Below, one piece after another: positions 1,096 through 25,942 of a stretch of 35,686 nt of DNA. The stretch's first letter is position 1; each line of letters opens with the position of its first letter. A program made the translations under genes and the position numbers. The stretch is from Kipferlia bialata (lineage: Eukaryota): NCBI GenBank assembly GCA_003568945.1, contig BDIP01000056.1, positions 1-35,686 of the forward strand, in the 5' to 3' direction. The notes under the pieces are model-generated. The model ran no database searches, was not told where the DNA came from, and was given only the letters and a program-made list of their open reading frames with translations.

Positions 1096-1173
1096 TCACT
1101 GTGTCACTAGGAATGAGCTGGCAGGGGCGCTGGCCTCATCCTCTAGTGGCCTAGAGTGAGATATATATGTATT

Positions 1174-1208
<35 letters not shown>

Positions 1209-2102
1209 GTACTGGCCTCATCCTCGAGTGGCCTGGGAGTGAGATGAGTACATTTATGTATACAGAGAGAGAGAGAGGGAGACAATACCTTCTCCCTGCC
1301 CTCCCTCTGTGCCGCACTGACACAAGAGAGAACAAGGAGCGGATTAAGTAGATCTAGATAGATATGCCTACACATATATGTACCTGCTCCCTACTCTCCC
1401 TCTGTGCCGCACTGACACAAGAGACCAGTGATAATATATACACTAATGTATGATGTATATACATACCTCCTCCCTGTCCTGCCTCTGCCCCACTCTGACA
1501 CTGAAACATCGGAGTCCTCAACAGTGCCTGGGGAGTGAGAAATAATAGGCATTGGCCATTTTGAACAGAAGACTATTGTTCTACTCCTCTACTTGTCATG
1601 GTAAGTAAACTTAGACAACTGATATACTAGCATTAGTAATACTAATGCAATGATGCTTTCTTTACCTGCGGATGTCTCTTCCACTGCCCCCTCCACCACA
1701 CTGAGGAATGCACCCTCGAGACCAGATATATATATATATATATTCATATATTAACAAATACATATATGTATATAGATACACCCACCTGCTGATGTCATCT
1801 CTACGGCTCCTTCCACCACGTTGAGGAAGGCACCCTCGAGGGATGAGAACACAAGGCCATACTCATGGGCTATGCCCTCACTCTTGAGGGCTATTAGCTC
1901 CTAGGGGATGAGTACAGTGTAAGTATGTGTATATAGATATGAATACAAATATATCTATATNNNNNNNNNNNNNNNNNNNNNNNNNNNNNNNNNNNNNATA
2001 CAAATATATCTATATATCTATATGCAGTGTAATAGTAGAGAGGACAAGGCCACACTCATGGGCTATGCCCTCAGTCTTAAGGGCTATTAACTCCTGTGGT
2101 TA

Positions 2103-2141
<39 letters not shown>

Positions 2142-5100
2142 TTTCTCATAAAATCACATATTATCACGTACCCTCAGCACCTCTGAGACTGTGTGGCCAT
2201 ATATATTGTGCTATATATACATATGTATATAGAGGGGGTATCTATTATATACACGTACCCTCAGGACCTCTGAGACTGTGTGCCCATAGGCCAGGGTGAA
2301 CTGAGAGACAATGCGGCATGGGGTGAGAACAGAGGACTATACATGTATAGATACATACAGATAAGCTACTGAAATAGAACGAAACCATATATATATGCCG
2401 TAGTGAATGGGAGACAATGCGGCCTAAAGTAAGCACAGAAGTGTAGTTCTATACATATATGCTATAGAGGTATGTACTGTGTGGGGTCATATATCATACC
2501 TGACACCGGTGTCTGCTGTAACCAACTATATATATATGGGGGCATACACTAATGTATTATATACCATATCATACTATACCATACTATCCTAATGTATCCT
2601 ATCCCATACCTGACACCGGGGTCTGCTGGGATGCCGTGTTGACAATGTGGCTGTTGACCAGGAAGAGTCTGTCAGTTAGAGGCCAGAGACTTGGGACCCA
2701 GCTCTGATATGAAAACAGAGACCATTTTACCTGTTTTGCACTTGAGTCCCATTGCTGGGTGCGTGTTTGACCGATATCAGATACCCACTGCCATATCTGG
2801 CCTTGAGGTGGAACCTCGATCCAATGGCCTGCATCTGGCCTACAGTCAGTATCGCGTAAGAATTGTGTCTTCGTGTGAATAAGAGGATCCTATATTATTA
2901 TATATAGGCCAATGGCCAATGGCCTGCATCTGGGCCTGGAAGTCAGTATCGCGTAAGATATTGGATTTAAAAGAGGACACTGAATCAGTATCGCGTGAGA
3001 TTTATGTTCGTTGTGGGAATTAGAACCTCTCACCTGCCACCATAACGCCTATCTTCTGGGACAGGGCATCGGCCTCCTCCATCTGGGGGTTAGGCATGGG
3101 TATACACATGTTTACAATATAACTCATATTAGTATACATATATAGAGAGACACGGACAATAGAGTAAGAGAATTGGAGAGTGATAGACGGGGCATCAGCC
3201 TCCTCCATCTGGATGTTAGGTGTTAGTGTACATACGTATACATAGTATCGATTATACTGATGGTCAATATACACAATCCCCTCACGTTGTGTGTTGTCAG
3301 CAGCAGCACCATGTGCTCCTTGGCCTTGTCGATGGTCTACTCTCTCTCTCTCTCTACATATATAGTNNNNNNNNNNNNNNNNNNNNNNNNNNNNNNNNNN
3401 NNNNNNNNNNNNNNNNNNNNNNNNNNNNNNNNNNNNNNNNNNNNNNNNNNNNNNNNNNNNNNNNNNNNNNNNNNNNNNNNNNNNNNNNNNNNNNNNNNNN
3501 NNNNNNNNNNNNNNNNNNNNNNNNNNNNNNNNNNNNNNNNNNNNNNNNNNNNNNNNNNNNNNNNNNNNNNNNNNNNNNNNNNNNNNNNNNNNNNNNNNNN
3601 NNNNNNNNNNNNNNNNNNNNNNNNNNNNNNNNNNNNNNNNNNNNNNNNNNNNNNNNNNNNNNNNNNNNNNNNNNNNNNNNNNNNNNNNNNNNNNNNNNNN
3701 NNNNNNNNNNNNNNNNNNNNNNNNNNNNNNNNNNNNNNNNNNNNNNNNNNNNNNNNNNNNNNNNNNNNNNNNNNNNNNNNNNNNNNNNNNNNNNNNNNNN
3801 NNNNNNNNNNNNNNNNNNNNNNNNNNNNNNNNNNNNNNNNNNNNNNNNNNNNNNNNNNNNNNNNNNNNNNNNNNNNNNNNNNNNNNNNNNNNNNNNNNNN
3901 NNNNNNNNNNNNNNNNNNNNNNNNNNNNNNNNNNNNNNNNNNNNNNNNNNNNNNNNNNNNNNNNNNNNNNNNNNNNNNNNNNNNNNNNNNNNNNNNNNNN
4001 NNNNNNNNNNNNNNNNNNNNNNNNNNNNNNNNNNNNNNNNNNNNNNNNNNNNNNNNNNNNNNNNNNNNNNNNNNNNNNNNNNNNNNNNNNNNNNNNNNNN
4101 NNNNNNNNNNNNNNNNNNNNNNNNNNNNNNNNNNNNNNNNNNNNNNNNNNNNNNNNNNNNNNNNNNNNNNNNNNNNNNNNNNNNNNNNNNNNNNNNNNNN
4201 NNNNNNNNNNNNNNNNNNNNNNNNNNNNNNNNNNNNNNNNNNNNNNNNNNNNNNNNNNNTTGTGTGTAGTGAGTAATAGCACCCTGTGCTCCTTGGCCTT
4301 GTCGATGGTCTACTATATATATATATATACATATAGTATATATATAGTATATACATTGTCTATACTACTCACATTGTGAGTAGTCAACAGTAGCACCCTG
4401 TGCTCCTTGGCCTTGTCGATGGTCTTCCACACACTCCTCCTGGTCATGGGGTCTAGACCGCTGGGGTGTAAGAGAATGACTCCATTGTCTGTATGTGGGA
4501 ACACACATTGTAATGAATACTCATAACATGAACTCACGTTGATGGCTCGTCCAGTATCAGCACCGAAGGTGACCCTATCATGGCTATGCCCAGAGATAGC
4601 CTAAGGGGTAAACTTACATTACTAACTGTGATATGTATACCTATACTGACTATTTCTTCGCAATACAATGATACAGAAGTATATCTATACCTCCTACGCA
4701 TGCCCCCACTGAGTGCGTCTGCCCTTCTGTGTATGGCACACTATATATATATACATGCACACTTACATATATATACTTACACTGAGAGAATTCTTACCGT
4801 CTACGCATCCCTCCACTGAGTGCATCAGCTCTTCTGTCTATGGCCGGACTGAGGTCCAGGAACTTGACCAGACCCTCAACCACAGAGTGCTCCTGATAGA
4901 TGAGAGTATATATAGAACATATATAGAATACATATTATATATGTACTATGTATACAATATATGATCCTATATATATATATTAATATGGAGGAACTTGACC
5001 AGACCCTCCACCACAGAGTGCTCCTATGATAAGAGTACATTTAGAACATATCGTACCGTATACACATATATTGTCTCACAATGTATATGTATGTAATACT

Positions 5101-8100
5101 AATATATTATTACATATACATATATAAGTATAGCTCTTTACACACCATCTTCCGCTGGACCCCTCTGATTCTGCAGAACAGGGAGAAGTGCTGGCGGACA
5201 GTGAGGGAGGGGAAGTAGCTGGGGGGTGAGATGAGGGTCAATGTCAGTATATACAATGAGAGAGACTATACATGAAGAGAGAGAGACACTATTGCACGTA
5301 CACGTCGTGCTGTGGGCAGAGGCCTAGGTGTTTCTGCACACTCCCAGGCCGTCTGGCCACATTGTCACCTGACACAAAGGCTGTGCCTCTGATATGTGAG
5401 ATATAGGAACATATAGAGTATACTCATAGTATTCTGAATATATTTATATATATATGACATCGTATGGCCAGTGGCCATTGGCCACACTGTCACCACTTTG
5501 TGACTTGTACGACCGACACCGCGAAAGATGGATATATCAATTGGGTAGTGTCTGTACCTGGTGGGTGCCGTGAGACCAGTGACTGCTCTGATTGTAGTAG
5601 TCTTGCCTAGGGTGAGGACAAAGGAATATCAACTATCACTGTACACCAAAGCACTCGACACTATGAGAGTATTCAAGGATAGGCCCTAACCTGCTCCGTT
5701 TGGCCCTAACAGTGCCATTGCCGTGTTGTTCTCCACATAGAAGCAGACGTCTCTGACAGCCACAAACCTGGGTTCAGAGGTAGATAATGATCAGCTTATA
5801 CCCTTCCAAAGACTCTCACTGTAACGGAAACACACGTGTAAGTAGTATACAGCAACGGAAAGCATATCAAGGACCTATACCTTGGCGGGTAGTACTTCTG
5901 CAGGTTGGTCACTATCAGCGGGTGCTGGTCTCTGGTGCACAGGGCAACCTCCTTCCTGGGGGTGAGGTTAGTATTGGTTATGGGTATCATACACTGATCA
6001 TACATGTATAGGTATATATATGTGTGTGTGTCTGGTGCACAGGGAGACAGCCTTCCTGGGGTATCAGAGGGGAATATCAGTGATAGTCTATCACTATCTC
6101 TAAACAGCGGTTATCCCTGAGTATCCTAACCTCTCCTCCAACACATCTGTGTCAACAATGCCATACTATATATATATATGTGTATATGTATATGTATATA
6201 TGTACATATACTATGCCTGTACCTCTCCTCCATCANNNNNNNNNNNNTGTATATATGTACATATACTATGCCTGTACCTCTCCTCCATCACATCTGTGTC
6301 AACAATGCAATACTATACATATATCTATATATATATAAGTGTACATATACCTTGCCTGTACCTCTCCTCCATCACATCTCCCTCTAAATATGTATATACG
6401 AGTACATATGTACTCATATATTTACATATATATATATATGAGTGTGTGTGTGTATATATCCCTCACCTCTCTTCCATCACATCTGTGTCCACTTCGTCGT
6501 GTCTCATGACGGTGTCCCTCACATTGTGTCTCCGAGGACGTCTGCAGGGCACTAGTGTCAGACACACATATATATATATATATAGTTAGATGGAATAGAA
6601 CTTAGTCCTCAATTAATAGTATATATATAGAAAGCCTCAGAGAGAGAGAGAGATGCATCAGGAACACTTCTAGTAAATCAGTACCTGGGAGCAGTGGGAT
6701 GGTATGTCATGAATGACTATACTAATATATACATATCGCAGCAGATGGTATGTATATACACACGTATGTATTGGTTTAGATAGTGTTCTGTCGAGTGTAC
6801 CTGGCAGCAGTGGGATGGACAGCCTGATGGCCCTCCCTCTACGGACACCAGTCTTGTCAGCAACACTGGTAGTCACCTAGGTATGAGTAGGGGAGAAGAT
6901 TGTTTGCTGAAAGAGTGCGTCAAAGGAACAATGGATTGTCAGCATAGACCAAAGAGTACCTCTGTGCCCGGGTCAACAGTAGGCAGAGAGGGGACTGGTG
7001 CACCGTACTCAGCTGGAAGCAGGTCGGCAAGCAGTGAGTGGCACAATAGTGATAAGCAACAAGTATAAGTGAATACATGACAGAAGTGTCCATGGTGTGA
7101 CAGATCCAATACCTATGGGTGGCAGGTGGCCCTGAAGAGTAGGGACCTCTAGTACGCCGTCATCTGGAGGTTAGAAGGACCCAAGTACGCAGATTTACAT
7201 ACCACTACTTGTGCTGCACTACGATATATAGATTGACACTTGTTAATACAAAATACATAGTATACATAGTATATGTGTAGAGTACCTTGGTTCTCGTTGG
7301 GCTGTCTGGCCTCTCTCTCCCCCTCTGTCTCTACCCCCTGCACTGACCCCTCCTGGTCCCTCACACTGCTCATCATGGCCAGTGTAAGACCTTCTGAGAC
7401 TGACTGGGGTGGGTATATATACTATACTACCTGTCTCATTGGATGAACACAATGATTAGGTACGAAATAGAGAGTAACAGGAGATTCTTTGAAAAGACAC
7501 AGACTACCTGGTTGACTATAAATGTGATGCTTGTCACAGACAATAGAGACTATAGTACCTGGTTGACTATGAATGTGGGTGTGGCTGACTCAGCGTGTGA
7601 GTCCCCAGTTGCAGTAACATAGGTGACATCAGTCGTGTCCACACTCTCACTCTCCCGCTGCCCACTTGCACTGTCTCGCTCTGTCTCACTCTCGACAGAG
7701 GCTGTGGGAAGTGGCGTAGCGGCAAGGCCTTAGCGTGAGTGCAAGAGTATAGTGTGTGGAGTGGTTACGGTGTATTCACTAATGCAGGAAATTCTCTGTA
7801 TACAGGATGCCTGGTAAGACTGGTACACCACTAGACTACACTTGGTCTCTCTTACCTGCGAACTCCTCCCTCTTCAATGCGGAATTGTCTACCTGGGGGT
7901 GAGACAACACACTGTCATAGAACAGAGCATAAGTGAAACATCAGGCAGAGAGAATAGCCATGCCTTCCCCCCTCTGACCCTATAGTACCTATAGTAATAT
8001 ACTATATATATACTGTAGTAGTAGAGTGTACATATATATAGCTACTTATGTATACAGTCATACCTGCCCTCTGACTGCCATGGCTGTAACACTGGATATA

Positions 8101-11100
8101 GAAGGAGAGACATTTACTACATAGCTATTGTATATATTAGTATATATATATTACTATATAGCCATACCTGCCCCCCTCTGACCGCCATGGCTGTGGGCAG
8201 CATGGACGTCTCCTCAATACTACATGTAGTCTTTAGTAACATGGCAGTATATATATATATATACATCAATAAGAGTAGGTTACACACCTGCCCCCCTCTG
8301 ACTGCCATGGCTGTAGGTAGCATCGATGTCTCCTCATCCTCAGTCTCTACTGGGTTGGGACTTAGCTGCCGTACTAGGGTAAGAAGAGACAGAGACATAA
8401 ATACAGCAGTATCAATGTATGGATATGGGCACACGTACCCGCGTCACCTTCGATAGACATATACAAGCAAAGACAGAAGTGTATACACGTACCCCCATCC
8501 ACGAGTTGAGCACTCCTCACCACCCTCTCTCTCTCTCTCTCATGTGCATAGTCGGTGTCAGCTGGTGACTCCACCATGGCACTAGGACCTGCTGTGTCCT
8601 GGATCACGGCATAGGGCGCTGTCACTATACCCTCTACCCCTATAGTGAGCGTTAGAGTATATATATAGACATATACATTTAGACATTCTGGATCACGGCA
8701 TAGAGCTCAGTCACTAGCGTCTCTGCATCTTCACTTGCAATAAGGACACATCTAGTGTGCTCAAAAGCAATAACAAGTCATAATACACATATACACCGAG
8801 TGTACCTTCTCCCTTCCCTGCCTTCCTCAACCTAAACAGGGGAGAGACAGCAAACCGAACCATCCGGAAGAGGACATCAAGGAGACTAATGATGGGGTAG
8901 AAGACAGAGCGACGGACACCGAGGGTACCCTCGTGATGAGAATATATGAATCCCACGCAGTATAGATACAGAGGGTATATTTGCGGTTGTATTACTGAAA
9001 AATTAGTGTCCCACACACACCTTCTTTGGAATGACTGCATCAAAGTACACGGCAAGCACAAGGTACAGGGCTAAGGTGAGAGAAGACACAATAACGGCAA
9101 GTAATACGGAAAGAGCCCAAAGGATGCAAGACAGTAGTTTTACCCGATACTCACTTCAAACCTTGACTGCCTCTCCTAGCAGTGTGGTATGCTAGTATTG
9201 TACTAGGACTATGTAGTATACACAATATAGATTCTTTGTAATCTAGAATATGTGCCACGTACCTCCGACCTTGACTGCCTCCTCTAAGAGTGGCATCAGG
9301 GGTGACACAAGGAGGGTATCCACATTGTACCCCCTAAAGGTCATCTTGCCAACCAGAGCAACACAGAGCTGGAAATGAGAGAAGGTCAAATAGCGTTGAT
9401 ATATATCACCGTCGTGTAGATAGTACTTAGCAGAGTTCTCACAGCGAATATACCATCATCGTGTAGAAAACGTACCATTGGGGGCACGTATGCGTGCCAG
9501 AGAGTGACAGGGTCATAGACACTGAAGCATATGACAGTAACAATGGCTGTGCAGCTGTAGAAGGCGTTCAGAAGGACACTGGAGACCTGGGGTTAGGGGA
9601 AGACATTACTCACTATATGGTGGGACCAAGGGGAGTATGAGAGGGAGGGTGAGGTACAAGTATGATAAGAGTGTAAAGAGAGGTATATACCTTGGTGTTG
9701 GGTAGGAATGCCGAGGCCAGCATCGAGAAGCACACTATGTTGAAGTAGAGGCTGCCCAGCACGATGGCGAGGGCTCCAAACGACATTCTACGCGGTTAGA
9801 GGGCAATATAGATTTCTATGCGACATTGCTGATATCCAATACCTCGTCATGGCGTCGATACTGAATATGTGGCCAGTCACATAGAGAGCCACGGTCATTG
9901 CGCCACCTGAGGGTGAGACAAACGAGTGACCAATAGCATCCATAGTTTAGAAGCAGAATAGTTGAAAGAGCCACTGAGAGGTGTATGATTCATCACTCAC
10001 ATAAGAGCATGTCGTATGCGGAATTGATTAGAATTACCATTAGAATCAGAGTAAATCCTTCCTTACTATATATATACTACCACTCACATAGTAACATGTC
10101 GTGTGCCAGCAGTACTACATATCTACATACAAAACATATATACTATATGAATTCTCACTTACATAAGAGCATGTCGTATGCCAGGAGTGTCAGCCAGTAC
10201 AGGTGGGCTGGCATCCCCTTGAGCTGCAGGAGGCTGAACAGCTTCAACTCTCTCTCCATGACTTAACGTGAGAAAGAGGGACAGATACACTAAAGTATTG
10301 AACGACATTTGGACAGCTTCAACTCTATCTCAATGACTGGGGTCAAAAGAAGGGACAGATACATACTCTCCACAGCCTCTAAATAGTTGATGATGAGAAT
10401 CTACGCGATACCTGGCTGGAATGCGAGTACAGGCAGCACGCTGAGTATGGCTATGGACACAAAGATGACAGCTGTGAATAGGGCCATGGTCTCTACGAGT
10501 ACACCAAAGGAGTAGTCCCTGGTGTATTGGAAGGGCTGGAAGGAGGCCGTGATGCCTATGGTTAGGAGGTATATATATACAGGTAAGAAATGAGTATTGT
10601 ACATTAGTACATTAGTATACAGAGGCGTGTAGTAGAAGGGTGGGAAGGAGGCAGTAATGCCTGGGGTCAACACACTGGGATATATGTTATAGGAGGCATG
10701 CCAACAGACATATATATATGTATGTATTGAACATACTACTGTACCTGCCGCATCTCGTGTCTGTCCAGTGGCTGACCGAAGGGCTGCACCGCTCAGCTGG
10801 GGGGTGAGATAACGCATAGACAGAAAGGTAGAAGATTTATGGCAAGGAAATGGTAATCTGGAGTTGTGGACACCCCACTGGGCAGAGAGAGTTCTTCATT
10901 GACAAAGATATACCATGCAATTGTCATCCTATACCTTCGCGTGTATGTCATTGACCAGTGACACGTGGGGAGGCAGGGAGAACGGGTTGGAGAACAGACC
11001 TGAGCCTCTGGGGGTGAACGCAAACACGACGACATATGCAATACATTGATAAGTGGGAATCATGATCTCTCCCTTAAGAGTAGCATCAATGAATACCTTG

Positions 11101-13649
11101 GGGCAGCAGGTGGTGCAGGGATTGCCTCATAGGACTTGGCAAAGTAGGCCTCGGGACTGCCTTCCTGAGAGGTCAGACTATGCTACTATACACGTGACGT
11201 ATATGAATATATGTATACATATATATACATATGCAAAGCGTCCTTCTGTTCGTACCTTGATGCCCGTCCAACTCATTCTGAGCTTGAGTCTCATGTAGGG
11301 TAGCACACCTAGGGTAAGAGATGCACAATCACACTCTCGTAACCTCTCCATGAAGGAACAAACACATTGTACTACACTATTGTACATATTGTTCCCATAG
11401 TACATGGAGTATCTATCCATACCCACCTGTCATTGGCGGCATGAATGTCTGCAGGGTTGGCTACACATCCGTATATACTTCTAGTGTACATGATATACAT
11501 ATATATGTGTGAATATATATCCACACCCGTCATGGGCGGCATGAATGTCTGCAGTGTGGGCTGCTGGACTGTGCTCTCAGGGGGGTCATTGAGGTACAGG
11601 GTCATCAGGGGTACACGTGCATAGAGTGTACGGAGAGGGGGGAGGATTGCCTGAAGTAAGGAGCATGGAGAGAGTATCTAAATAGAGGTCACTATCTGTA
11701 TTGGAAGGAGAGATTATACTGTAGAAGATGGTAGTAAGGACCCACCTCTGGCTCCTCGATGTAGTTGGCAGCGGAGGACGCCCAGGTGTACCCTCTCCTA
11801 CGATTAGCACTGGCACAATAGAGACTGTCTTTATATACATGTGGCAAAGTAATATACCTCAGCTGGTACATGATGTAGTTCTCAAATGTCCATGCATCAT
11901 AAGTATGTACTATACAATATATAATATCGAAAGAGTATATACTATATACATAACTGTGGTATCACAACCATATACAATATCCTATATACTACATTCTATA
12001 CATATACCATACCTCAGCTGGTACATGATGTAGTTCTCAAATGTCCATGCATCGTGGTACTGGGGGTGGTCACGGCCTGAGGGTCAGAGGGGTCAAGACT
12101 AAGATCATATGTATCGTGACAGTATTCTCAGAGAAGACCCACTGGTCCACTTCAACATATGTAGTGATTGTAGTGGTACTGGGGGTCGTCACGGCCTGAG
12201 GGTGGGAGGGGTCAGTGGAAACAGCATACATACATAGTATATGTATCACTGGGTGCTCTCCTATTTGAAGAGAGTGAATAGTTTGGGAATATCTTACTGA
12301 GTTCCTACTAGACACTGTATATATAGTATACTTATCTATATATATATACCTACTATTGTGGCAGCTGTGTCTATGTAGTGGTCGTATGTGCTGTTGTTAG
12401 CGTATCTCTCAGCAATGGCAGCCGGGTACTGAGCAACCAGGCCCTTGACACCTGGTGTTGATGAATATGACACTGTAGCTATAGTGATAGTGATGGTAAG
12501 TGCATATGACACTGTAGATATAGTGATAGTGATAGTGATGGTAAGTCCATACGATAGTGATTATGATACACTAGGTATATAGTAATTAATGAATCTCAAG
12601 GGGTATGATACACAATAGGTATACAATAATGTATGAATCTCTTGGGGTATGATAAACAGTATATGATGTGTACCTGGCAGGTATGGGTCTGGCAGAGCAG
12701 CGCTCGTGTAGATGTTGGAGACCTCTCCCTGGAGGTGAGATACATTGGCTGTAGAATACTACAAGGCATGATCTATATATACACTTTCAGGGACAGAATT
12801 ACCTGCAGTAGTGTATACTCCATTGCATTCGGCACGTGTTCTCTCTCATTGGAGTATGTGGGAGCCAGCTATTGTCAGATGTATGCATATCAAACACAAT
12901 CCACCGGGTCGAATAGACTTGTCAATAGGAGCGAGAGTACCTAATATATAAATTCAATGTTACATTGAATCTATGTAAGAGGTTAAACACAGTTGCTAAT
13001 GAGAGGGAGAGAGTACCTGCTTTATGACCAGGGACTCAGACGGTGGCAGAGACCCGTGGTGGGACCTGATGTCAGTGAAGAGACCACAATTTCCTATACA
13101 ATACTGTCCTACAGAAAACACTATTCCCAGTAATGAATGTACTATAGCGGATGATACTATAACACTGATACCTCGTGTCAATGGGTACCCCATTAATGTC
13201 CTGAGGAAGGAGAGCATTCTGGGGTTAGAGACATTTCCGTATATTGGATACCTACAGCAATGAAGATACTCTCACAAGTCTGGTGGATGAATCAAACATG
13301 TAGACTACACTATATGTATACCTCAGCCTCGACCAGCTGTGCCAGTTCCACCCATGGGTCATAAACATCCCTCTCCTCCTGTGTCATGATGGAGACATCA
13401 GACATCTGGGGTCAGTAAGTAAGTATACTGCACACATATATATATATATAGATATATATATGTCAACGTACATCAGGGCCACACCAGACATCTGGTAGGA
13501 GACAGTTAATACATATACACTGAGTAGAAGTCACACAGTGCAGTACAACCAAGATAGTATTGAAAGACAATTATGTGCAAGAGATGTTGGTTATAGAACC
13601 CTGTCGAGAGGGTACCGTGTGTGTATATACTATATATAGTGTATTCTCC

Positions 13650-13685
<36 letters not shown>

Positions 13686-16600
13686 GTATACCTTGTCGAG
13701 TGGGTACCGTGTGTTGTCAAACACAGTCATCGAGACTGGGACACCGTATCTCTTCATACTGGGGTGAGATTGATGTGGATTACAATCTACTGGTATAATA
13801 CTATCTAGTAAAGAATCTAGAGTAGTACTCAGTTGTTTAGAGATGTATACCAGAGTTATACTCACCTTGGGGAGATGTATTATGTATATATATCAGATAG
13901 ACCCACCTAGGTCTCTCTATCGATTACCAATAGTGAATACATATCAAATAGATTGACCCACCTAGGGGAGTTGTCACCAAAGACAGTGGCAGCTTGGTAC
14001 TGGACATTACCTGACTTGTCAGACACAGAGTAAGCAACGCGATACAGTAGGGAGATGCACACTATAGTAGGCACGTGGGAGTATGGTGGTATAGTATGGT
14101 GGTATAGTATGGTGACCCTCACCTTGGTACTGGTCTAGCAGGGTGCAGACATAGGGGTTGCCCAACATGTCATAGCCTGTGCAGGGCTCTGTTGGGTACT
14201 GGAGTCAGTTATAGAGAGCATACTCACTGTCACATACTGTATAGTAGGGCTTACATACCGTTGTATCTGATACATAGTCACTGAGCATGCACAGTTGACA
14301 GGCAGCCTCGGCCTCCTCTATGTAGCCAGCTGGGGTTATTCATTGACACTATAACAAGTATACAGAGAGAGGGAGTCTCTCATACCTACAGGCTCATCAA
14401 CGCTATCCCCAGTTTCACATACATTTTGACATATCATATATATGTGTCTCCCACCTACATACTCATCCACTAAGCCCACCATGAATGGGAACAAATGTGC
14501 CACCATGAGGTATGAGAACATGAAGCAGAGGAAGGGCAGGACAAAGATGCCAAGGAAGCCACAACGACGAGAGCTAAGAGTTAGAAAGAACTTCAAACTC
14601 AAAATAACTCCAAACTTAGAAGAACTTCAATCTTGGAAGTACTCTATACTTAGAAGAACTAACTTAGAAGAGGAAGAAGACTGTTAAGATCATATTCACT
14701 GTGAGTGTCAGTGATGATTACCTGTCCACTGCATACAGCTTGGACATCAGACCCCGTATGTATCTGGGTGTATTCAGTGGCGGGTTGAGCACATCTATCT
14801 GGGGGGTCAGTAGAGAAAGAGCAGGGTCTGCATGCAATGGTGACGACTCAACATTACCTTTGCCTCGCCTTGGGCGCGCTCTCTCTTCCTCCTCGCTCTC
14901 CTGGTGTCAGTGTAGTATTTATGAGTATTCAAACATGATACAGAATGAATGACTGAATATAGTAGATGCGTGTATGATACAGGGATTGACGCACCTACTC
15001 TCCCTCTGAGATATGGTACCCGTGTCAGTACCGTCACCTTCACCAACATAGCTGGGGTTCAGAGCGATTCACATCGGACACTAGAAATAGACTCGAATAG
15101 AGAAGATGTGGTATGCTAAGATTGTATGGGGTTATTGCATCTACCTGCCGGTCTCCGTCTCCTTTTGTGTAGGTGTAGCACCCACAGATGACCCTATCCA
15201 CTCCTCAGAACCCTCGCTGCCACCCCAGGCAAGCACCTCTCTCTGCAGTTAGGACACATACACGCATCGAGTAGTATACATGCTATTCATGACTAACTGG
15301 ATATTAAATTTGGTACCTTCTGTATGGCCCTCCTACTCTCATCTCCGCCCTCCTCTATGTGCATGTTGGCCAGTGATCTCTTATGTGATTCAGCCATGGC
15401 CCTAGAATTATTAGCTGCACGATACGTAAGACTACACGATAATTGGGGATATTGTATTATGAGTATTGAAGTTTACCTGTGGCCGACGTTGATGAACACC
15501 TCCTCCAGGCTGGTCTGGGTATGTCAGAGGGAGAGAGAGGGAAATGGGGCGAGAGAGGGGGAGAGAGGGAGGGGGAATTAGTGGAGAGCTTTCTAACTCA
15601 GGACGCCATATAGTAGGCCTAGTAGACAGAGAGTATGGGTACCTGGGTACACGATATGTCCTCTATGTACTCGAACCCCATCCCCTCTCTGGACTCTAGT
15701 ACACTGAGAAGATCAGGGAGCTTCGACTCTGTATCCTGACACGTCAGGCATAAGTAATGAGCAATCACACAACAGCCCACCGTCGGACAACACGTATATA
15801 GTAACGCAACGTATGAGTAGTAACCCCCACCTGACTGACACTGTATGTCAGGCTCTGCGCACTGTGGTCCAGGAGGGTCAGGGTGTGGGTGGGGGCCTGA
15901 GGTAAGTAGTGGAAGGAAGTAGTGAATAGAAGAGAAAAGTACTAGAATCAAGGTCTGGAATATGGTGTGCTTGGGGGCCTGAGGATATTAGTAGTATACT
16001 GAGAGAGACACATAAGGTTGGAAGCAATGAGAAGATCTTACCTCAGGGTCAGTTGCCAGTGCCTCAGTGAGAGTGCCTGGGGGGTGAGACAACTACAAGC
16101 CTATGACTCAATAGTTCAAGATATGTAGGAGAACATATGTGCTTATATGTCTGTGTATACTAGTGTATACAAGTATTCTAACCTCTGGCACCCTCCCCCT
16201 CCTCCTCCCCCACTGTGGGTGTACCACCCTCTGTGGTATCCATATACTCTATGGACATACTCTCACAGGTCCTGGGGTAAGTATACAACAGACTATACCT
16301 GCAGAAAGCCACTATGCCAAGTACATATATTCACGAAACACAAGTAGTGTGTAAACATGTATATATCAGTACCTTCTGACGGCACTGGCTATCACTGACG
16401 TGTGCGACGCAGAGTCAGCTACCACAGATATCACAAATCCAGTTCCGAACTTTGCCTTGGAGTAAGATTTAGATGTGAGACCAAAGACAGTACATACATA
16501 TGTCATAAAAGTGAAAGGTGAGACCCAAAGACAGGTACCCACTAATAAATAGACATACAATTACACACAAATACTATTCTTTGTTCTTCAGACTGTTGGC

Positions 16601-19600
16601 CCCACCTTGAGGTGCAGCACTGTGCCAAGAGCAGCAATCTGGCCCTGGAAGGTCAGAAGAGAAAGACATGTGTCAAAACGTACCTGAGCAGAGAGTGGAC
16701 TGCACTCCTGTGATGTACCTTGCTCATGATTGCCACCACATCCCCCAGCCTCTCAGCCTCTGGCATGTCATGGCTGGTCAGCATCACAGCGGGAGGGGGG
16801 GCCCACTTCCTAGGGGTTAGTACATATAAATATATGGTATCTTAGTAGTTAGACCCACTAGCGCAAGCGCGTAGTACTCTGGCTTATCGTGTAGCTTATA
16901 CCCGTACCTCCTGAGGTGTCCGTGTCTGCCGTATGTGGGCATCTGCTGCTTCTGTCCTGTGATGGCCTCCACTGCAGTCCACACAGTGTGTCTGGCAATG
17001 GGGTCTAGGCCTTAGGTTAGACTCTAAAATATACACGACATATATGTGGAGAGAGAGAGAGAGTACGAGGTTACAGAGTGTCTGGCAATGGGGTCAAGGC
17101 CTGGGGTGAAAACACTGATTGCTCTCTGACCATAAGCAATTCGTACATATTCATACCCCTCTACATACCTGTGGATGGCTCGTCCAGGAGATTATACTAT
17201 ACACATATATACATAATATCCACTGTAAATCTATCAATACTATATAAATAGTTACCTATACCTGTTGCGGGCTCGTCCAGGATGACCAGTACATATATAT
17301 ATATAGTAGAACTCACATACGTATATAAATATATATATTCATATACATATACACATACCCGTAGAGGGCTCGTCCAGTATGACCAGCTTGGGACACCCGC
17401 TAAAGGCCATGGCTATGCAGAGACGCCTCAGCATACCACCAGAGAACCTAAAGGTAAGATGGGAAACCCTATACATACATACCGGTACGTGTAGTATATA
17501 TGTGAGCATATAGAGGAATATGATGTATGATGTACACGTACTGTCCAGCTGGCTTGTTCTTGACATCGAGTAGGTCCACATAGCCCAGTAGCTCATGGGC
17601 CATGGCCTTGATGCACCTCTTGGGTATGCCTGGAGTGAGGGTGTCAACACATCAGAAACTGCTATTTCATGTTATGATATATATGTGGCATACCCCTAAA
17701 TCGTACATACTCACATGTACTGCATGGGAATATATACACATATATGTATTATTACCATAAACTCATATATATATATATGACATACTAACCCTTGATCATG
17801 CAGACTATCCACATGTGCTGGATGGGTGACAGGGAGGGCCAGATGGTGGTGTTGCCCTGGGGGCATATGCCTAGGGTGCGCCTGGTTGTATAAGAGAGAA
17901 TATCATGAGGTATTAACAATTCACACACTTATGGTCACTATCTATAATAGTACACATACACATCTTATCTGCAGAGGGTGCTATATATATATATATATAT
18001 ATAGTATACCTGATCTGCAGCGGGTGCTTGTTTAGTGCGTGGCCACTGATCCATGCCTTGCCCAGTCTAGAGGAGACGGGGTTGTCAGGCTTCAGAGTGC
18101 CTGGAGTCAGTTGGATACTGTAGAACACTCCTATATATATGAGAACAGCACCCGCTACTCAAGAGTGGACATATGGCGAGATACTCACCTGTGAGCATGT
18201 CTATTGTGGTACTCTTCCCTGCCCCATTGTGACCCAGGAGACAGAAGGTCTGGCCCTGCTTGATCCTGGGATGAGATGCACAATATAGACCAATCATATA
18301 CTTACGTATATAGTATTAAGATAGTGTATATATATGACATATGTATCTAGTGTGTAGGTCTGACCCTGCTTGATCCTGAGGGGTAAGATAGATCTATATA
18401 TAACAATTGTATACAATAGAGAAGTGTGCAGGAGTATATATACATGACAATAGTATCTGAAGTGAAGGTGAGCCCTCCTTGATCCTAAAAGATGAGATAT
18501 ATAGAGATATATAACGGAATAGCAACTCATTTGGATGGAACGACTACAGGACTGTAAGAACTCGGTATAATATCAAAGCTCAGAGCGAAGCACATAATTG
18601 GTACACGAACTCACTCCACCAGGAGTAGACATCTGCTCTGACGATATGTATATGGAATCGTACCTCAGAGTGACTCCATTCACCGCCTTGTTGTACTCTC
18701 TCTTCCCAGACTGGAAGGTCTTATCCAGAGAGTGGGCAACAACCTATCCAGTGAGATACCGGTATTAGTAAAGTGGTATGTGAGCAATCGCTACAATCTG
18801 TAAACTACAATACATATAGTGAGTGTTCACTGTACACTCACCACTGCCTTGTCGAGAGCGGGGTGGGTCAGGACAGACACCATCTCCTGTCTCACATCTG
18901 GGGTGACATGTGTGTATATATATATATACTATTAGTATATATACTCAATGCTATATATATAGGTAGGAATACTAGTATGTGACTCGGGGCAGACACCATC
19001 TCCTGCCTCACATCTGGTGGGTGAGATATATCAATATTAATACATATATATATATAGCCATATATACAGATATGTATATACACAGCCATACTATATATAG
19101 ATATGAATACATATGTAAATAGATGTGGGGGTGAAGGTAGACACCATCTCCTGCCCCACATCTGGGGTCAGACCTATACATAAAATGACATAGGGGGGAT
19201 ATAGTGAAAGTGTGGGTGTGTTAAAGTAGCTCTCTGTGGCGGGTGTAAGATGTACCTGAGTCCAGAGGCTCTAGTCTGTCAGCCGTCCCTGCTGCCTCAT
19301 TGTAGGGGAGAGGGACACGCTTGTGCTTGTCTGCACAATGAGACAAGGAGAGAGATAATTAAGGACATACCCAAAGTCTATAGTGTGTATCAGTATATGA
19401 TAGATGCATAGTCCAATATAGTACTATGATAGCTCAAATGCGTGAGACAAAGATCAGTCATTGCATGATAGTGTTCGTGTATATAGTGCTATCATAGTTC
19501 TGACACTGCATATTGTGCTTGTCTGTATTGAGACAAAGATCAGAAATTGCAGTGGCCATACCCAAGAGGTGTATACAAATATGATATATCTATTGTCCAT

Positions 19601-22600
19601 GACAGTACTCTAATACTTCAAATGCGTACCTCTCTTCTCCGCAGGCACAGTCTCAGACCAGTAACTCCTGGGAGGTCAGGATAGGGACGAAGACTACAGC
19701 CAGAAAGTACCTTCCAGAATAGTAATCATTTACACTGGATACAGATTGAGTATAGTACATGTACCTCTAAAGCCATCATATACACTCGGTATACTATATT
19801 GTGTGTTTCGTCTACACATATAGAGTAAAGAGAGTGTACCTCTTCAGAAGCTGGAAGGGGTTGCGTCCTGGACTGCCGTTGGAAGGCATCCACTCCCCTG
19901 GGGGTAAGAGAACATTGGATATACTACTATAGCCAAACAGCATATCAGTATCATCATTGGGTAAGAGCACAATGGAGATAATACACTAAAGCATTGTGTC
20001 CATATCATACATGGAGTGCAGTGTAAACTATACACTTCCACCCATTACTGTAATACAACGATAGTTAACATAAAGACTATACATGCTACATTACCTACCA
20101 CCCATGTGACAAGCAGCCACACGACCGAGTTGACCAGCATATTGATGAGGGCACTTGAGACAGGAGGGGTGTTGTACACACAACCTGGAGTCGGACGAAT
20201 CAATTAATGACGTTATTGCCTTGTACCATCTCTTTGTAGGATATATATGCTACTAGACCAGAATACCAAATCCCAAACACTTGTGGGTCCTCATCTGTCA
20301 CTATACTATAGCCACTACTCTACCTGTGTATCTCAGCATCATGAATACACACTGATCATATTGTAGTAGTATACCTGTTCCCAGGCACTTGTACCCATCG
20401 TACTGGTACAGGTCAGACCCAAAGAGCATCGAAAAGGTGAATCTAGGGTCAGAGAGAGAGATGTCTATACCACAGCGAACATTGACATTAACAACCAACA
20501 ATATATAGATTTATATACCTCTCTGTGGGTGGCACCAGTATGGTCTCGTATGTCTTCATGTCTATCCTCAGGGTGGGGAACACTACTATGTACACAGCCC
20601 TGAGGGTAAGACTTATACTAATACATATCAATGACAATGAAACGATGAGTATATAGTATCAGCCAACTGGGTGTTTCACAAAGTGAAAGTATATCAGTGA
20701 GAATACAATGGGTATGTGATTGTAGAAAGATACGTACGATAGTGCGACTGCAAACGGCACGAAGGGGAAGACGTTGAACAGGACAGTCTGGAGACCAGAG
20801 GGTATGAAGGAAGGGTCGTAGAAGAGGAGGTCTCCGTACATGTGACCTATCATAGGGCACATAATGCCTAGGGTGAGATGCATAGATAGAGAGACACACC
20901 ATCATAGCGAGAGGGTGAACACTTACCGAATATATAGATTCAAGTATATCCAGAAAGCATGGAAATTGTCAGACTTAAATATGGGTAATAATTCAAACTG
21001 AGACTGTGCTGGATACACACATAGGAGACATGCAATCATGGCCCTTATGATACAAATGAATACATATACACTGACTACCAATACCTATGATGGTTACCAA
21101 CAAGCATGCAATCATGGCCCCTATGATGCCAGATGTGACACACCCTACTAACAGACCGATGGAAGTGGCAGCGAAACCAAAGATGAAGAAGATCGTGAAG
21201 GTCACCTCTAAGAGTAAGTTTAGAGAGGGAGAGAGAGAGTATGGGAAACAAAAGACGAAAAAGATGGTGAAGGCGACTTCTTAAGGTTAGCCACATAAGA
21301 GAAGGAGTGAAAGAGACAACAACTCTGTAAGAAGAGAGGGACAAGCATAGAGAGCTAAGAGTCTGAGAAGAAAGTGAGAGAGCCTCGCAAGGTACGCACC
21401 GACATCTACGTATCCAAATATGTCGCAGTCTGGTATGGAGTGGAGGAGGTACAGGAAGGGCACAAGGGTGAGTGTGTACACAATCATCTGGACAAGTGAC
21501 CAGCTGAGCCAGTACAGTGGGTCCCTAGAGTGAGAAGACAACTCGATATACATATATAGATTATATATACATAGAAAGAGAGAGAGTAGCAGCTCAGCCA
21601 GTAGAGGGGGTCTCTGAGTGTCAGTGTCAGTCCACTGCCGCGTAGATACTTAGTCCCAGAAGATGTGTTGCGTTTCGTTTACCTGACCCCCATCACTCTG
21701 AGTGCTGTGAGCTTCCCCTGTCTCTTCTCCACCACTGCACTCTGGGCCACCATGAAGATCTGAGAGTTAGAAATACATATACATATTCACTTACAAACAC
21801 ATCAAGCCATTCACGTGAAGATCTAAGAGTGAGACAAGAAGTCATACACAGAACGAACACTACATCGACATCTAGCCGGTGAGACTGGTTTCCACAATGC
21901 ATGTCACTCCTCCATCACAGTCACAAAGAGCGAGGGAAGAGGCTGAGAGGAAATGCAGTAGTACCTGATAGGCGACGACCATCGTAAGCAGGACTGCACT
22001 GGTCAGGGGATCTGGAGTGTGAGAGAGAAACAACCGGGAACATACCAATAAATATAGGTATAGAGAGGGAGAGGGTATATACGGTATATACAGTATATAT
22101 ACAGTATATATAGTTGGTTATTACGATCCCATACCTGGCACCAAGAATGTGTCTGCCACACCTCTAGAGGGGTAACCCTTCACCTAGGGTGTTAGAATAT
22201 ACTATAGAGATAGCATCGGGTATGACAGACATACGATGAGGGATTCCCATTCGTCTGGTGTATTAGACATCCCATAGGGAAAGGGGTACATGACATCGTT
22301 GATGAGTATATGCTTGAAGTCTACATGATATACATGATATATACGTACCAGCGGGTCAAATATCGTCCCAGACTGCTCATATACAATGGCCTTCTCAATA
22401 GCATGCTGTGCATAGAGAGTGAAGCCTGACCACTGGACCTGGGATATGAGTTACATATATTATATATATATAATAGAAAATAGTATTACATATACATTAT
22501 GACATATTATGTAGTGGAATGGACAATAAGTTCAAATAAAACACAAAGACTACTGGCCCTAGGGGTACTAGTGATACATCATTGAGACAATAGAATCGCT

Positions 22601-25600
22601 ATACCACCCACCGTCCCATACTCCTCTGGCCAGTAAATCTAGCTCATATTACAGATACTAATACTATCCCCTCCTGCATATATACATATGTCTATAGAGT
22701 GCATAACCCACCGTCCCATACTCCTCTGCCAGTGGGTCAATATTTCAAAGACACACATATAGATATGAGCACATGTGTATGACTATCGATAGGCATGTAT
22801 AGATTTACGTAATGGTACACACTCACCGTGCCGTACTCCTCTGCCAGTGGATCTAGGCCATCCTGCATGTACAGGTAGGCATCGTCTGGGGGTACGGAGG
22901 GAGTACAGATAATTTTGTAAGCTAGTTCCTATTTATCACACAGAGGAAGAGATTATAGAAGGAATGCCATCCTGCATGGATACGTAGACATCGTCTGGGG
23001 GTAAAGAGGGAGGATGAATAATATATCAATTCCAATCACTGAGATAGTGATGCTCAAGTATGAGAGGAGCTAGTGGAAGAGAGTACAAGGAGGGTAACGA
23101 AATAGTGTTGATACACTCAGAGGAAGCAGAAGAGATGATATGCTCCGATACCTAGCACCGTCTGGTTGTAGTGTATGGTGTACTCAACGTTGGAGGGGAG
23201 GGTCTCAAGGTCAGTGAGACCAGCGAAGGAGACACCTGGGGTTAGAGAATATGAGTGTACTGTCTTCTACATATTACTCTAGAGTATGTCAAACATATAC
23301 ACATATATATGTAGTGGGCGAAGGAGACACCTGGGGGGTTATGGTGCCATAACACGAAAACATACGAGACAAATGAATAGGGAAACTAGTAGGTAACTGG
23401 TAACTCACCATATGACCCCTGGGTTATTGAAGACATGACATCATACCGTCAACATCCCCACTAATAGTACATGCAGTATATGGTAGAGTCTATATAGACC
23501 ACCTAGCCATACCTAGCCATATGACGCCTGGGTTGTTGTTTGCGTATCTGTCCAGCTCCCATCCAGAGTCAAACACCATGATGGACTCGTCCTCCCACCC
23601 AAAGTCGGCTAGAGTAAGGAATGTATATATATACTAATACTCAATAGGGTAATACTAATTACACACTATACTATTGTATGAACACCATGATGGACTCGTC
23701 CTCCCAAAGTCGGCTAGAGTAAGAGGAATATAGAGGTATACATATGTACCACTATAAGAGAATTCCAATCTAATACTAAATACACACTACTGTATGGACA
23801 CCATGATGGACTCATCCTCCCACCCAAAGTCAGCTAGAGTAAGAGACAAATATCCGAATACTCACAAGGGTAATACTTAATACACACTGGTCTACAATGG
23901 AATCATCCTCCCAATTTGGGTTACACAGGGAGAGATTAATAACATGCAGGGTCAGCGATGTATACAGTGAGGATAGTAGAAGACACATATGTACCCCACC
24001 TATGACTGCGTCCATTGTCCTGTTGACTGCCAGGTTGATAGCAGGGGCAAATACATATATACATATTCCTATATATATAAATGTGTGTGTGTGTGTGTGT
24101 GTGTGTGTAGACTATACACCAGTCTATAACTGTCTCCGTACCTATCACTGCATCCATTGTTCTGTTGACTGCCAGGTTGTTAGCAGGGGCAAAGGCTAGG
24201 GACACACACCCCGAGTCAGGCTGGGGTACACCCGGACCATGCCTAGAGGGTAAGGCATACATATATATATATATATATATATAGGGATAGAGAGAGAGAG
24301 ACACCCAGAGTCCGGCTGGGGGACACCCGGGCCATACCTGGGTAAGACAACATATGCATATAAGAATAGAGAGAGAGAGTGAAAGAGAGAGACACACACC
24401 CCGAGTCGGGCTGGGGGACGCCCGGGCCATATCTGGATAAGACACTACATACATATATAGATAGGGAGAGTGAGTGAACGAGAGAGAGAGAGACAGCCCG
24501 AGTCCGGCTGGGGGACACCCGGGCCATACCTAGTGGGTAAGGTATACGCACACACATATATATGAATGTATGCATATGTATATATATAGGGAGAGAGAGA
24601 GAGAGAGCGGAGTCAGGCTGGGGGACACCCGGGCCATACCTAGTGGGTAAGGTATACGCACACATATATATATGAATGTATGCATATGTATATATATAGG
24701 GAGAGAGAGAGAGAGAGCAGAGTCAGGCTGGGGGACACCTGGGCCATAACTGGGTTATATGGATGAATAAAGGGTGACGAGAGTATATGCCGAGAGTACC
24801 CACCCGTCACTGCCGTCAAAGACTGCACAGGAGGGGACAGGGGGGACGGCCTTGGCCTAGTGTTAGTACAGATATGTATATATATGTGTATATGTATATA
24901 TATAGATAGATATAGAGAGAGAGAAAGGAAGAGAAGTGGGGATAGCGTTGGTCTCTTGATGTCAAACTATATATAATACATGTAGAACGAGGGAGACAAA
25001 GAGAGTATAGGCCAGTATCGGTAAAGACACGTCGCGTGGTTTTTAAGGAGAGGTTGCACAACGCTGGAACTACACGTAAATACATATATATAGATATATC
25101 ACTCACCACTGGGTGGTTGTTTGGATCCAACGTGGACAATACTATGTTAGGCCACTGCCACAGGACTAGGACAATGGCCATGGGGACTAGGAACCTGGGG
25201 TAAGAGAGATAGATATACCTGTCACTAGGTAGACATGTATATTAATGTGTATATACACACAATTATACGTCAAGTACTAGGGCAATGGCCATGGGGACGA
25301 AATACCTGTATATATAGACATAGTGTATTATATTACTATATATTATTATATATATTTTTTTATATATACACATTGTAGATTAGTAATAATCTATATACTA
25401 GGACAGTGACTGTGGGGAGGAGATACCTCTGGTAAGAGCAAGCGATATACATATAGGTAGAGGTGACATATACCTAGTCACAAACAGCATCGTAGACTCC
25501 TTGACAGCTGACAGGAAATGCAGCATGTACTAATATATATATACAACCATACTATATGTATAGTATATATACTAATATACATATATAGTAGTACAGGACT

Positions 25601-25942
25601 ACACATATACTAATAAGTATAGACCTTGTTATGAACAGCATTGTGGACTCCTTGACAGCTGACAGGAAGTGCAGCATGGTGAGGCCACAGAACTGCTCAT
25701 AGAAGAAGCCTAGGATGAGATAATAACAGAAATGAAGCACTAGGATAATGCAAAGACATACTGAGAGGAGTGGGGGGGGGGGGGCTCACAAGATACAGGG
25801 TGGGAGCAACACATACGCACATACATATACAATGTATGATACACACTAGGCCTATGCGTAAATGTAAGACCGTATCTCATCTGTGTAACTAACCTCTGGG
25901 CCTGATGGCATCAGTAGCCTTCTTGACCACAGAGCGCGGCAT
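1096..25942 (-). CDS. ABCA: Full-size ABCA-subfamily ABC transporter (TMD1-NBD1-TMD2-NBD2), >70 short exons
   Basis: ATG at 25942 (MPRSVVKKATDAIRPR), TGA at 1098-1096. Phase-consistent GT-AG exons give VVEKRQGKLTALRVMGV, LLGHNGAGKSTT, FSGGMLRRL, ILDEPSTGLDP, TSHDMPEAERLGD, HLKAKFGTG, TSLEEVF, MERELKLFSLLQLKGM, DTDVMEER, LLGPNGAGKTTT, LSGGMRRRL, TTHNMEEADAL, HLKARYGSGY and SLEGAFL. Not every exon in 11-14 kb was resolved. Confidence 0.93.
1961..1997. other. Assembly gap (N)
   Basis: Run of n flanked by duplicated atacaaatatatctatat. Confidence 1.
2731..5767 (-). other. ABCA nucleotide-binding domain 2 exons
   Basis: Walker A GPNGA|GKTTT split by an intron (~5691/5606), LGLCPQHD (~5310), LSGGMRRR (exon 4892-4798), ILDEPST (~4540), TTHN|MEEADAL (4373/3083). 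Confidence 0.93.
3367..4259. other. Assembly gap (N) inside an ABCA intron
   Basis: 893 n, flanked on both sides by echoes of the TIDKAKEH...TTHN exon end. Confidence 1.
6129..6490 (-). repeat. Four intronic copies of the exon end 'TDVMEER|GT' plus the live exon end (small N gap 6236-6247)
   Basis: + strand motif acctctcctccatcacatct at ~6129, 6220, 6276 and 6360; the live copy ends at ~6467. Confidence 0.9.
16372..18743 (-). other. ABCA nucleotide-binding domain 1 exons
   Basis: Walker A GHNGAGKSTT (exon 18264-18189), Q-loop LGICPQ (exon from 17881), signature/Walker B FSGGMLRRLCIAMAFSGCPKLVILDEPSTG (17447-17360), H-loop LTSHDM (~16780). Confidence 0.93.
23513..23925 (-). repeat. Three intronic copies of acceptor + exon start 'ADFGWEDESIMV' upstream of the live exon
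   Basis: Copies at ~23681-23720 (4-nt deletion), ~23798-23840 and ~23895-23925 (degenerate). The adjacent intron sequence (taatactaa..tacacact) is repeated as well. Confidence 0.85.
24142..24755 (-). repeat. Five intronic copies of acceptor + exon start 'YGPGVPQPDS' upstream of live exon 24242-24142
   Basis: + strand motif gagtc(a/c/g)ggctggggg(a)cacc(c/t)gggccata at ~24308, 24403, 24499, 24610 and 24720, ~100-110 nt apart, separated by (AG)n/(AT)n tracts. Confidence 0.92.

What the first reader, a model, noticed from the sequence alone, without database searches (positions are those of the whole stretch)
1211..25526. Gene-wide synonymous bias of exon echoes
Hand count of differing codons (synonymous:replacement) in six echoes: 1232-1211 2:0, 1720-1666 7:2, 3336-3286 5:1, 4737-4691 7:1, 8215-8168 5:0, 25526-25474 5:1. 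The total is 31:5, from hand-picked and therefore biased examples. Many exons of the gene have at least one echo. Introns thus seem to be built partly from former coding versions of their own exons, which could act as an archive or a gene-conversion reservoir (inference).
Basis: partly seen in the sequence, partly recalled or inferred. Interest (0 to 1): 0.85.

Follow-up and report, generated by a model that had tools for sequence, protein, structure and literature searches.

The report
Introns stacked with displaced exon ends
In a transporter gene of the free-living protist Kipferlia bialata, about 40% of exons have a short copy of one end, splice site included, in the neighbouring intron, and these copies differ mainly at silent positions, so they likely came from other working versions of the gene through failed DNA-break repair, which would make one genome a record of past alleles.

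Summary
Confirmed and extended. The gene is a Kipferlia bialata ABCA transporter. The six hand counts reproduce exactly, 31:5. A frame-blind search finds 63 echoes at 37 of 92 exons. They differ at 81/1258 replacement sites and 91/317 four-fold sites; codons 117 synonymous to 80 replacement. The bias is real but weaker than 31:5. Duplication followed by neutral decay predicts a ratio near 0.6; 0 of 1200 simulated sets reach the observed 0.21. Echoes also differ from each other silently, keep GT/AG, and mostly have unrelated intron flanks. 18 of 29 testable echoes lie with their exon on one full-depth contig, so they are not misplaced haplotypes. Both copies were therefore coding while they diverged (inferred). 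Likely mechanism: repair synthesis on a diverged allele or paralog aborts and is end-joined. An archive or reservoir function is unsupported. No RNA data; one gene only; donor not identified.

The parts
1096..25942 (-). ABCA-type transporter gene, about 92 exons (median exon about 77 nt in the draft model); host of all 63 echoes
   Evidence: Model of 2365 aa without internal stop; 2331 residues identical, 0 mismatches, to the public protein named ABCA [Kipferlia bialata]; ABC_tran; best solved relatives ABCA3/7/1/4
1205..1232 (-). Acceptor-type echo of last exon 90 (live 1150-1096)
   Evidence: 2:0 over 1232-1211
1289..1418 (-). Two donor-type echoes of exon 89 (1418-1384, 1323-1289); replacement-rich, alike to each other
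1666..1720 (-). Donor-type echo of exon 88 (live 1900-1786), GT kept, flank unrelated
   Evidence: 7:2
2038..2093 (-). Acceptor-type echo of exon 88, next to an N gap
2172..2423 (-). Exon 87 (2317-2259) with an echo on each side (2423-2393, 2201-2172); its own acceptor reads CAT
   Evidence: exon skipped in the public protein
3286..4311 (-). Two donor-type echoes of exon 83 (4311-4260, 3338-3287) either side of an 893-nt N gap
   Evidence: 5:1 for the outer one
4691..5023 (-). Exon 81 (4892-4798) with echoes on both sides (5023-4989, 4737-4691)
   Evidence: 7:1
6131..6379 (-). Stack of three donor-type echoes of exon 75; a 12-nt N gap lies inside the stack
7964..8216 (-). Stack of three donor-type echoes of exon 68 (live 8373-8288)
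   Evidence: 5:0 for the inner one; on one 4542-nt contig with the exon, depth 468.7, no other letters
10001..10660 (-). Echoes of exons 59 and 60 (10660-10627, 10336-10310, 10113-10088, 10019-10001)
11858..12195 (-). Exon 52 with a 41-nt identical downstream echo whose intron flank is unrelated, and an upstream echo
17073..17728 (-). Echoes of exons 25, 27 (two) and 28 in the first nucleotide-binding domain
18979..19161 (-). Two acceptor-type echoes of exon 21
23408..23913 (-). Exon 6 with three upstream echoes (intron part alignable, 91 identities in 122 columns for one unit pair) and one downstream echo
24000..24747 (-). Exon 5 with five upstream echoes, differing among themselves almost only at third codon positions, and one downstream echo
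25474..25526 (-). Donor-type echo of exon 2 (live 25709-25625)
   Evidence: 5:1

Best explanation
The echoes are exon-end-plus-splice-site copies lying in tandem with their exon, likely made when repair of a DNA break copied from a diverged working allele or paralog, aborted, and was closed by end-joining. Shown: tandem geometry in cis, silent-site bias, retained GT/AG, mostly unrelated intron flanks. Inferred steps: (1) A break near an exon end invades a homolog whose exon is conserved but whose intron differs. (2) Synthesis crosses the splice site and stalls, often in a (TA)n or (GA)n tract. (3) The extended end fails to anneal and is joined to the other end, leaving [exon end + splice site + intron piece] twice, one copy from each homolog. 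(4) Only duplications that span a single splice site leave the mRNA intact, so only these persist. (5) The dead copy then decays neutrally and the intron has grown by about 95 nt. The silent bias is thus inherited from the two coding ancestors, not maintained now. I lean to alleles of a very diverse population over paralogs, and to the echo being the displaced resident copy; both leanings are weak.
For: Replacement/four-fold ratio 0.21 (0.13-0.31). Simulated dead-copy model gives 0.57-0.67 and 0 of 1200 sets <=0.207; two constrained lineages with omega 0.1-0.2 give 0.16-0.27. Echo-echo pairs (17 pairs in 11 stacks): 19/309 vs 20/82, where two dead copies would give equal rates (Fisher 8e-6). 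GT kept in 24 of 30 (one is N), AG in 23 of 24; intron flank beyond the consensus no better than random pairs in 38 of 54, and in 10 of 14 near-identical echoes; mean flank score 0.06 against 12.8 expected at 29% substitution. The intron pieces either side of a single echo are unrelated in 20 of 22. Third-position divergence is homogeneous across 40 echoes (p 0.38) while replacement divergence is not (p 0.002); no drift towards AT (29:31). Outermost echoes carry more replacement changes than innermost, 25/210 vs 14/237, p 0.03, with similar four-fold rates (post hoc). Microsatellite within 14 nt of the junction in 22 of 54 vs 19% background; in 32 of 37 echo introns vs 15 of 52 others. Other full-depth contigs in DNA run X1 match several exons with 22 differences, all exonic, 14:6 codons, so a diverged coding homolog exists in the sample. 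Literature: end-joining of failed SDSA gives tandem duplications (PMC8654963); metamonads lack canonical NHEJ and Fornicata lack Rad51A and keep two Dmc1 (PMC8516963); Dmc1 stabilises mismatched joints (PMC6719624).
Against: No donor was identified. Where the second copy overlaps echoes (exons 23, 28, 54), contig break points imply that it matches the live exon, not the echo (my inference). A minority of echoes look like plain whole-unit duplicates: flank similarity in 16 of 54, one 97%-identical 110-nt unit, and the SOD repeats. The junction microhomology test is weak, 6 of 40 vs 5.6%. An allelic origin needs four-fold diversity near 0.25-0.3, yet run X1 shows long contigs with no other letters (contigs drop variants). 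The RecA-like tail duplicate in the same window shows the opposite bias, 3:28. One gene only.
Confidence: 0.58

Rival explanations
1. Identical (sister) tandem duplication first; later the live exon alone is overwritten by gene conversion from a diverged allele or paralog, while microsatellite-rich intron parts scramble quickly.
For: Gives the same silent bias. A second coding copy appears to share exact stretches of 32-37 nt with live exons (inferred from contig overlaps). In several stacks all echoes share a state against the live exon (17 sites). Similarity fades beyond the first microsatellite in a young SOD repeat.
Against: Echo-echo differences are biased as well. Echoes with about 6% decay at replacement sites should sit in intron pieces about 89% alike, but 20 of 22 piece pairs are unrelated.
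Confidence: 0.17
2. The echoes are kept by ongoing selection as a gene-conversion reservoir or archive of spare exon ends.
For: Low replacement divergence and intact splice dinucleotides.
Against: Replacements are not conservative (BLOSUM mean -0.78 for 49 vs -0.49 expected); 6 of 63 gapped, 2 of 63 with stops; outer copies more decayed. By my reasoning, conversion frequent enough to be selected would erase a 29% four-fold difference, and collapse removes intact and damaged echoes alike.
Confidence: 0.07
3. Echoes are used now, as alternative half-exons or mutually exclusive segments.
For: Echo splice sites outscore the live site in 9 of 30 donors and 10 of 24 acceptors.
Against: No echo covers a whole exon; 0 of 54 have the internal donor/acceptor pair needed for an in-frame swap; the public protein uses no echo.
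Confidence: 0.05
4. Assembly artefact: the two haplotypes were placed in tandem.
For: The species is suggested to be diploid (PMC5874029); three N gaps lie next to echoes; X1 may be the source reads, so it is not an independent sample.
Against: 18 of 29 echoes in the laid stretch lie with their exon on single, separately assembled contigs without other letters, at depth 443-469, equal to an echo-free contig (469) and to unrelated contigs (about 410-510). Stacks of up to five different copies exceed two haplotypes.
Confidence: 0.04
5. Plain tandem duplication with neutral decay of the intronic copy; the bias comes from hand-picking.
For: Explains the geometry, and fits a minority of echoes with alignable flanks. 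The six named echoes are indeed extreme.
Confidence: 0.03

Closest known systems
Tandem duplications by polymerase-theta end-joining of failed SDSA (C. elegans helq-1; PMC8654963, abstract and section 12 read); aborted SDSA in Drosophila (PMC8951532, passages)
   Same: Copied segment appears twice in direct tandem; size range there starts near 100 bp, here the period is 46-225 nt.
   Different: There the template is the sister, so the copies are identical at birth, and it is seen in repair mutants. Here the copies differ like two working homologs and cover about 40% of the exons of a natural gene.
Duplication of an exon-intron junction, human FGG exon 8-intron 8 (PMC9052919, abstract)
   Same: Same geometry: exon end plus donor site duplicated into the intron.
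   Different: A single 403-bp event that disrupts splicing and causes disease; here dozens of duplicated splice sites appear tolerated (splicing not tested).
Intron gain by tandem duplication (Rogers model, name recalled; Hellsten et al., PMC3265369, abstract)
   Same: Intron sequence derives from neighbouring exon sequence by local duplication.
   Different: There an exonic segment duplicates and forms a new intron whose ends are the repeats. Here 0 of 63 echoes sit at an intron end in that geometry; existing introns grow.
Mutually exclusive duplicated exons, and pseudogene conversion donors such as chicken immunoglobulin pseudo-V or trypanosome VSG archives (recalled, no call)
   Same: Non-expressed or alternately expressed copies with a coding-type divergence pattern.
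   Different: Echoes are partial, cannot be swapped in frame, decay without conservative bias, and no targeted conversion is known here.

Membership tests
Tandem duplication by aborted homologous repair plus end-joining | Direct, adjacent repeat in cis | tested here: met
   46 of 178 adjacent pairs vs 1 of 178 inverted; 18 of 29 bridged on single contigs
Tandem duplication by aborted homologous repair plus end-joining | Copies identical at birth over the whole unit (sister template) | tested here: not met
   Flanks unrelated in 38 of 54 and silent bias; met only by a minority
Tandem duplication by aborted homologous repair plus end-joining | Microhomology or templated insertion at the junction | tested here: inconclusive
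   6 of 40 vs 5.6%; the donor sequence is unknown
Tandem duplication by aborted homologous repair plus end-joining | Genetic dependence on recombinase and polymerase theta | not testable with these tools
Homolog-templated variant (proposed here) | Divergence ranks replacement < silent < intron, as between working homologs | tested here: met
   6% < 29% < mostly unalignable
Homolog-templated variant (proposed here) | A donor allele or paralog carrying the echo's bases and flank | tested here: inconclusive
   A diverged coding copy exists but does not appear to carry echo states where it overlaps
Rogers-type intron gain | Repeats form the two ends of a new intron | tested here: not met
   0 of 63
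Mutually exclusive or alternative exons | Copy bounded by usable acceptor and donor, in frame | tested here: not met
   0 of 54
Mutually exclusive or alternative exons | Echo bases present in spliced mRNA | not testable with these tools
   No RNA holder listed
Gene-conversion donor archive | Ongoing constraint on the donor and transfer into the expressed copy | tested here: inconclusive
   Decay is non-conservative; no population data
ABCA transporter (host gene) | Two ABC domains with ABCA-like sequence in one long chain | tested here: met

The most novel reading that the evidence does not exclude
Genome-wide, this fornicate, which relies on mismatch-tolerant Dmc1 and lacks canonical end-joining, keeps swapping exon ends with those of highly diverged alleles. 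Each failed swap pushes the former exon end into the intron, so introns are chronological stacks of past alleles and grow by accreting pieces of other alleles' introns. One assembly would then record population diversity (four-fold divergence near 0.3), selection strength and past interhomolog recombination in a lineage where sex has not been observed (recalled).
Probability: 0.3. Interest if true: 0.85.

Novelty: new variant of a known kind. Interest (0 to 1): 0.66.

Why it matters
It would be a route of intron growth and turnover in which introns are rebuilt from other alleles' exon ends and intron pieces. It offers a way to read allele diversity and recombination history from a single genome of a scarcely sampled lineage. 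It links the unusual repair kit of Fornicata to a visible genomic scar. It also raises a testable splicing question: how a reduced spliceosome (87 of 174 proteins, PMC6679479) ignores dozens of near-consensus decoy splice sites about 100 nt from the real ones.

Tried and rejected
No whole genome is held, so the genome-wide test was not run. No RNA holder was listed; run X2, guessed to be RNA, covers introns and showed no GT-AG joints among the rows listed, which is no evidence either way. Only 6248-21900 could be checked against contigs; 34 of 63 echoes, among them five of the six named, remain unchecked in this way. Word searches with exon 59 and with the RecA-like tail copy found nothing. 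The full HMMER search with exon 54 returned the gene's own protein and one repeat-driven chance hit, so no outgroup or donor protein was obtained. A PDB search with exon 13 gave one chance hit at E 0.92. Mutational hot-spot or AT-drift explanations were rejected (29:31). Edge overrun was rejected by trimming. mRNA-derived insertion was rejected because echoes carry intronic splice signals. Nine full-text searches listed no paper that, by title and abstract start, describes such echoes in Kipferlia or elsewhere; the library lacks most subscription papers. The three supplements of PMC5874029 were listed but not read and could bear on ploidy. Earlier-finding look-ups gave nothing on this genome.

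Full report
Setting. The window is eukaryotic and intron-rich. Two of its proteins match public records named Kipferlia bialata at 100%: a RecA-like protein and an ABCA transporter. I built the minus-strand model by script and by hand: 90 exons from 25942 to 1096, 2365 aa, no internal stop. The public protein agrees at 2331 residues with no mismatch, adds two exons that I had missed, skips my exon 87 and lacks 11 residues at the end of my exon 63. The two extra exons have no echo; counts per intron below use my 89 introns. Which copy is live is forced by geometry, since only one copy has the whole exon.

Observation. The six hand counts reproduce exactly, 31:5. A search blind to reading frame gives 63 echoes (13-56 nt, median 28) at 37 exons. 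46 of 178 adjacent exon-intron pairs are positive, against 0.73% of 7569 distant pairs, 1 of 178 inverted and 1 of 176 second-neighbour pairs. 54 of 63 touch the splice-site end: upstream echoes copy the 5' end with the acceptor (24), downstream echoes the 3' end with the donor (30). An anchored scan finds none on the wrong side. Differences are 81/1258 at 0-fold and 91/317 at 4-fold sites, codons 117:80. So the bias is gene-wide, and the hand-picked six overstate it.

Not an assembly artefact where testable. Contigs of DNA run X1 carry 18 of the 29 echoes in 6248-21900 together with their exon, with no other letters, at depth 443-469; an echo-free contig has 469 and unrelated contigs about 410-510. 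X1 may be the source reads, depth is one figure per contig, and 34 echoes lie outside the stretch. Three N gaps lie near echoes. No RNA evidence was obtained.

Why plain duplication fails. If one copy dies at birth, it changes at all sites while the live copy changes at silent sites only, so the replacement/silent ratio cannot fall below about 0.5 (reasoning). Simulation with the same detection step gives 0.57-0.67, and 0 of 1200 sets reach 0.207; two constrained lineages with omega 0.1-0.2 give 0.16-0.27. Neighbouring echoes in a stack, both dead, should differ evenly, yet show 19/309 vs 20/82. Echoes keep GT in 24 of 30 (one is N) and AG in 23 of 24, with a branch-point motif in 16 of 24 (live sites 68 of 89). 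Beyond the consensus, the intron flank is no more alike than random intron pairs in 38 of 54, including 10 of 14 near-identical echoes. The two intron pieces around a single echo are unrelated in 20 of 22 cases. The ranking replacement (6%) < four-fold (29%) < intron (mostly unalignable) is what two working homologs show. Third-position divergence is statistically uniform across 40 echoes (p 0.38, low power) while replacement divergence varies (p 0.002), and the replacements are not conservative. This fits a silent difference set at birth plus later neutral decay. One result cuts slightly the other way: transitions are enriched at 0-fold sites (44/81 vs 32/91, p 0.014), as expected if some replacements were filtered by selection.

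Mechanism (inferred). In C. elegans, ends extended by SDSA that fail to anneal are end-joined and duplicate the copied segment (PMC8654963, section 12). With a diverged homolog as template, the same steps give one copy from each homolog, with different intron flanks. Fornicata have lost Rad51A and keep two Dmc1 paralogs, and metamonads lack canonical NHEJ (PMC8516963, passages); Dmc1 stabilises mismatched triplets (PMC6719624, abstract). Anatomy agrees: each echo adds about 95 nt (median intron 105, 194, 292, 372 nt for 0-3 echoes); the piece between exon and echo is the shorter one in 17 of 18; microsatellites are enriched at junctions (22 of 54 vs 19%) and in echo introns (32 of 37 vs 15 of 52, partly confounded by length). 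Outer echoes are more decayed than inner ones (25/210 vs 14/237, p 0.03, post hoc), a weak hint that the echo is the displaced resident copy. A diverged coding homolog exists in X1: 22 differences, all exonic, 17 at third positions, 14:6 codons, at depth 340-423. These rows may come from more than one locus, and I cannot tell allele from paralog. K-mer peaks suggest that the species is diploid (PMC5874029, section 11).

Against and open. No donor was found, and the second copy appears to match the live exon where it overlaps echoes (inferred from contig overlaps). Some echoes are ordinary whole-unit duplicates. Junction microhomology is inconclusive. The RecA-like tail duplicate shows no silent bias (3:28); this shows that my pipeline does not create the bias, but also that not all duplicates here follow the rule. 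Seventeen consecutive introns have no echo (P 0.0009), which is unexplained. Current use is unlikely: 0 of 54 echoes can be swapped in frame. An archive function is not supported.

Comparison and verdict. It works like end-joining of aborted homologous repair and has the geometry of the FGG junction duplication (PMC9052919, abstract). It fails the identical-at-birth feature of sister duplications, the Rogers geometry (0 of 63; PMC3265369, abstract) and the test for alternative exons. PMC4888836 was seen in passages only and gave one-sided invasion merely as a reference title; PMC6679479 and PMC8951532 were seen in passages. Nine searches listed no description of the pattern. Verdict: a real and surprising feature, a new variant of a known kind, shown for one gene; mechanism likely but untested. 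Interest 0.66.

Noticed in passing
window 28807-29172 (+): Tail duplicate of the RecA/Dmc1-like gene (27088-28575): end of the penultimate exon, a different intron, and a frameshifted last exon. The last exon differs with a replacement excess (3:28 codons; 30/110 0-fold vs 5/31 4-fold), opposite to the ABCA echoes. No protein matched it.
   Followed up: partly
window 2318-2320 (-): The in-frame exon 87 has an acceptor reading CAT instead of CAG, while its upstream echo keeps TAG; the public protein skips this exon. Base error, mutation or non-canonical site not resolved.
   Followed up: partly
window 1-790 (+): 3' part of a superoxide-dismutase-like gene (name from recalled motifs; Pfam did not confirm the 30-residue piece) with young whole-unit donor duplicates, 318-408 vs 409-499 and 68-134 vs 140-206; similarity ends after the first microsatellite or TA tract.
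   Followed up: partly
window about 13700-16900 (-): A run of 17 consecutive introns without any echo (P 0.0009), largely one unbroken contig; possibly a region replaced by a long conversion tract.
   Followed up: no
window 11570-11584, 16755-16958, 17836-18232, 18866, 19284-19292: A second, full-depth coding homolog of the ABCA gene in run X1, seen only in exons; no separate protein for it was returned.
   Followed up: partly
window 1096-25942 (-): About 91 introns in 7.2 kb of coding sequence; the branch-point motif lies within about 7 nt of the AG in 68 of 89 acceptors; a few AAG and GAG acceptors.
   Followed up: no
window 29200-35686: No local direct repeats were listed here by self-comparison; several long open frames were not analysed.
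   Followed up: no
window 22235-22348 (-): Intron 9 reads open in frame for 38 codons up to a strong donor-like site; neither my final model nor the public protein uses it.
   Followed up: no
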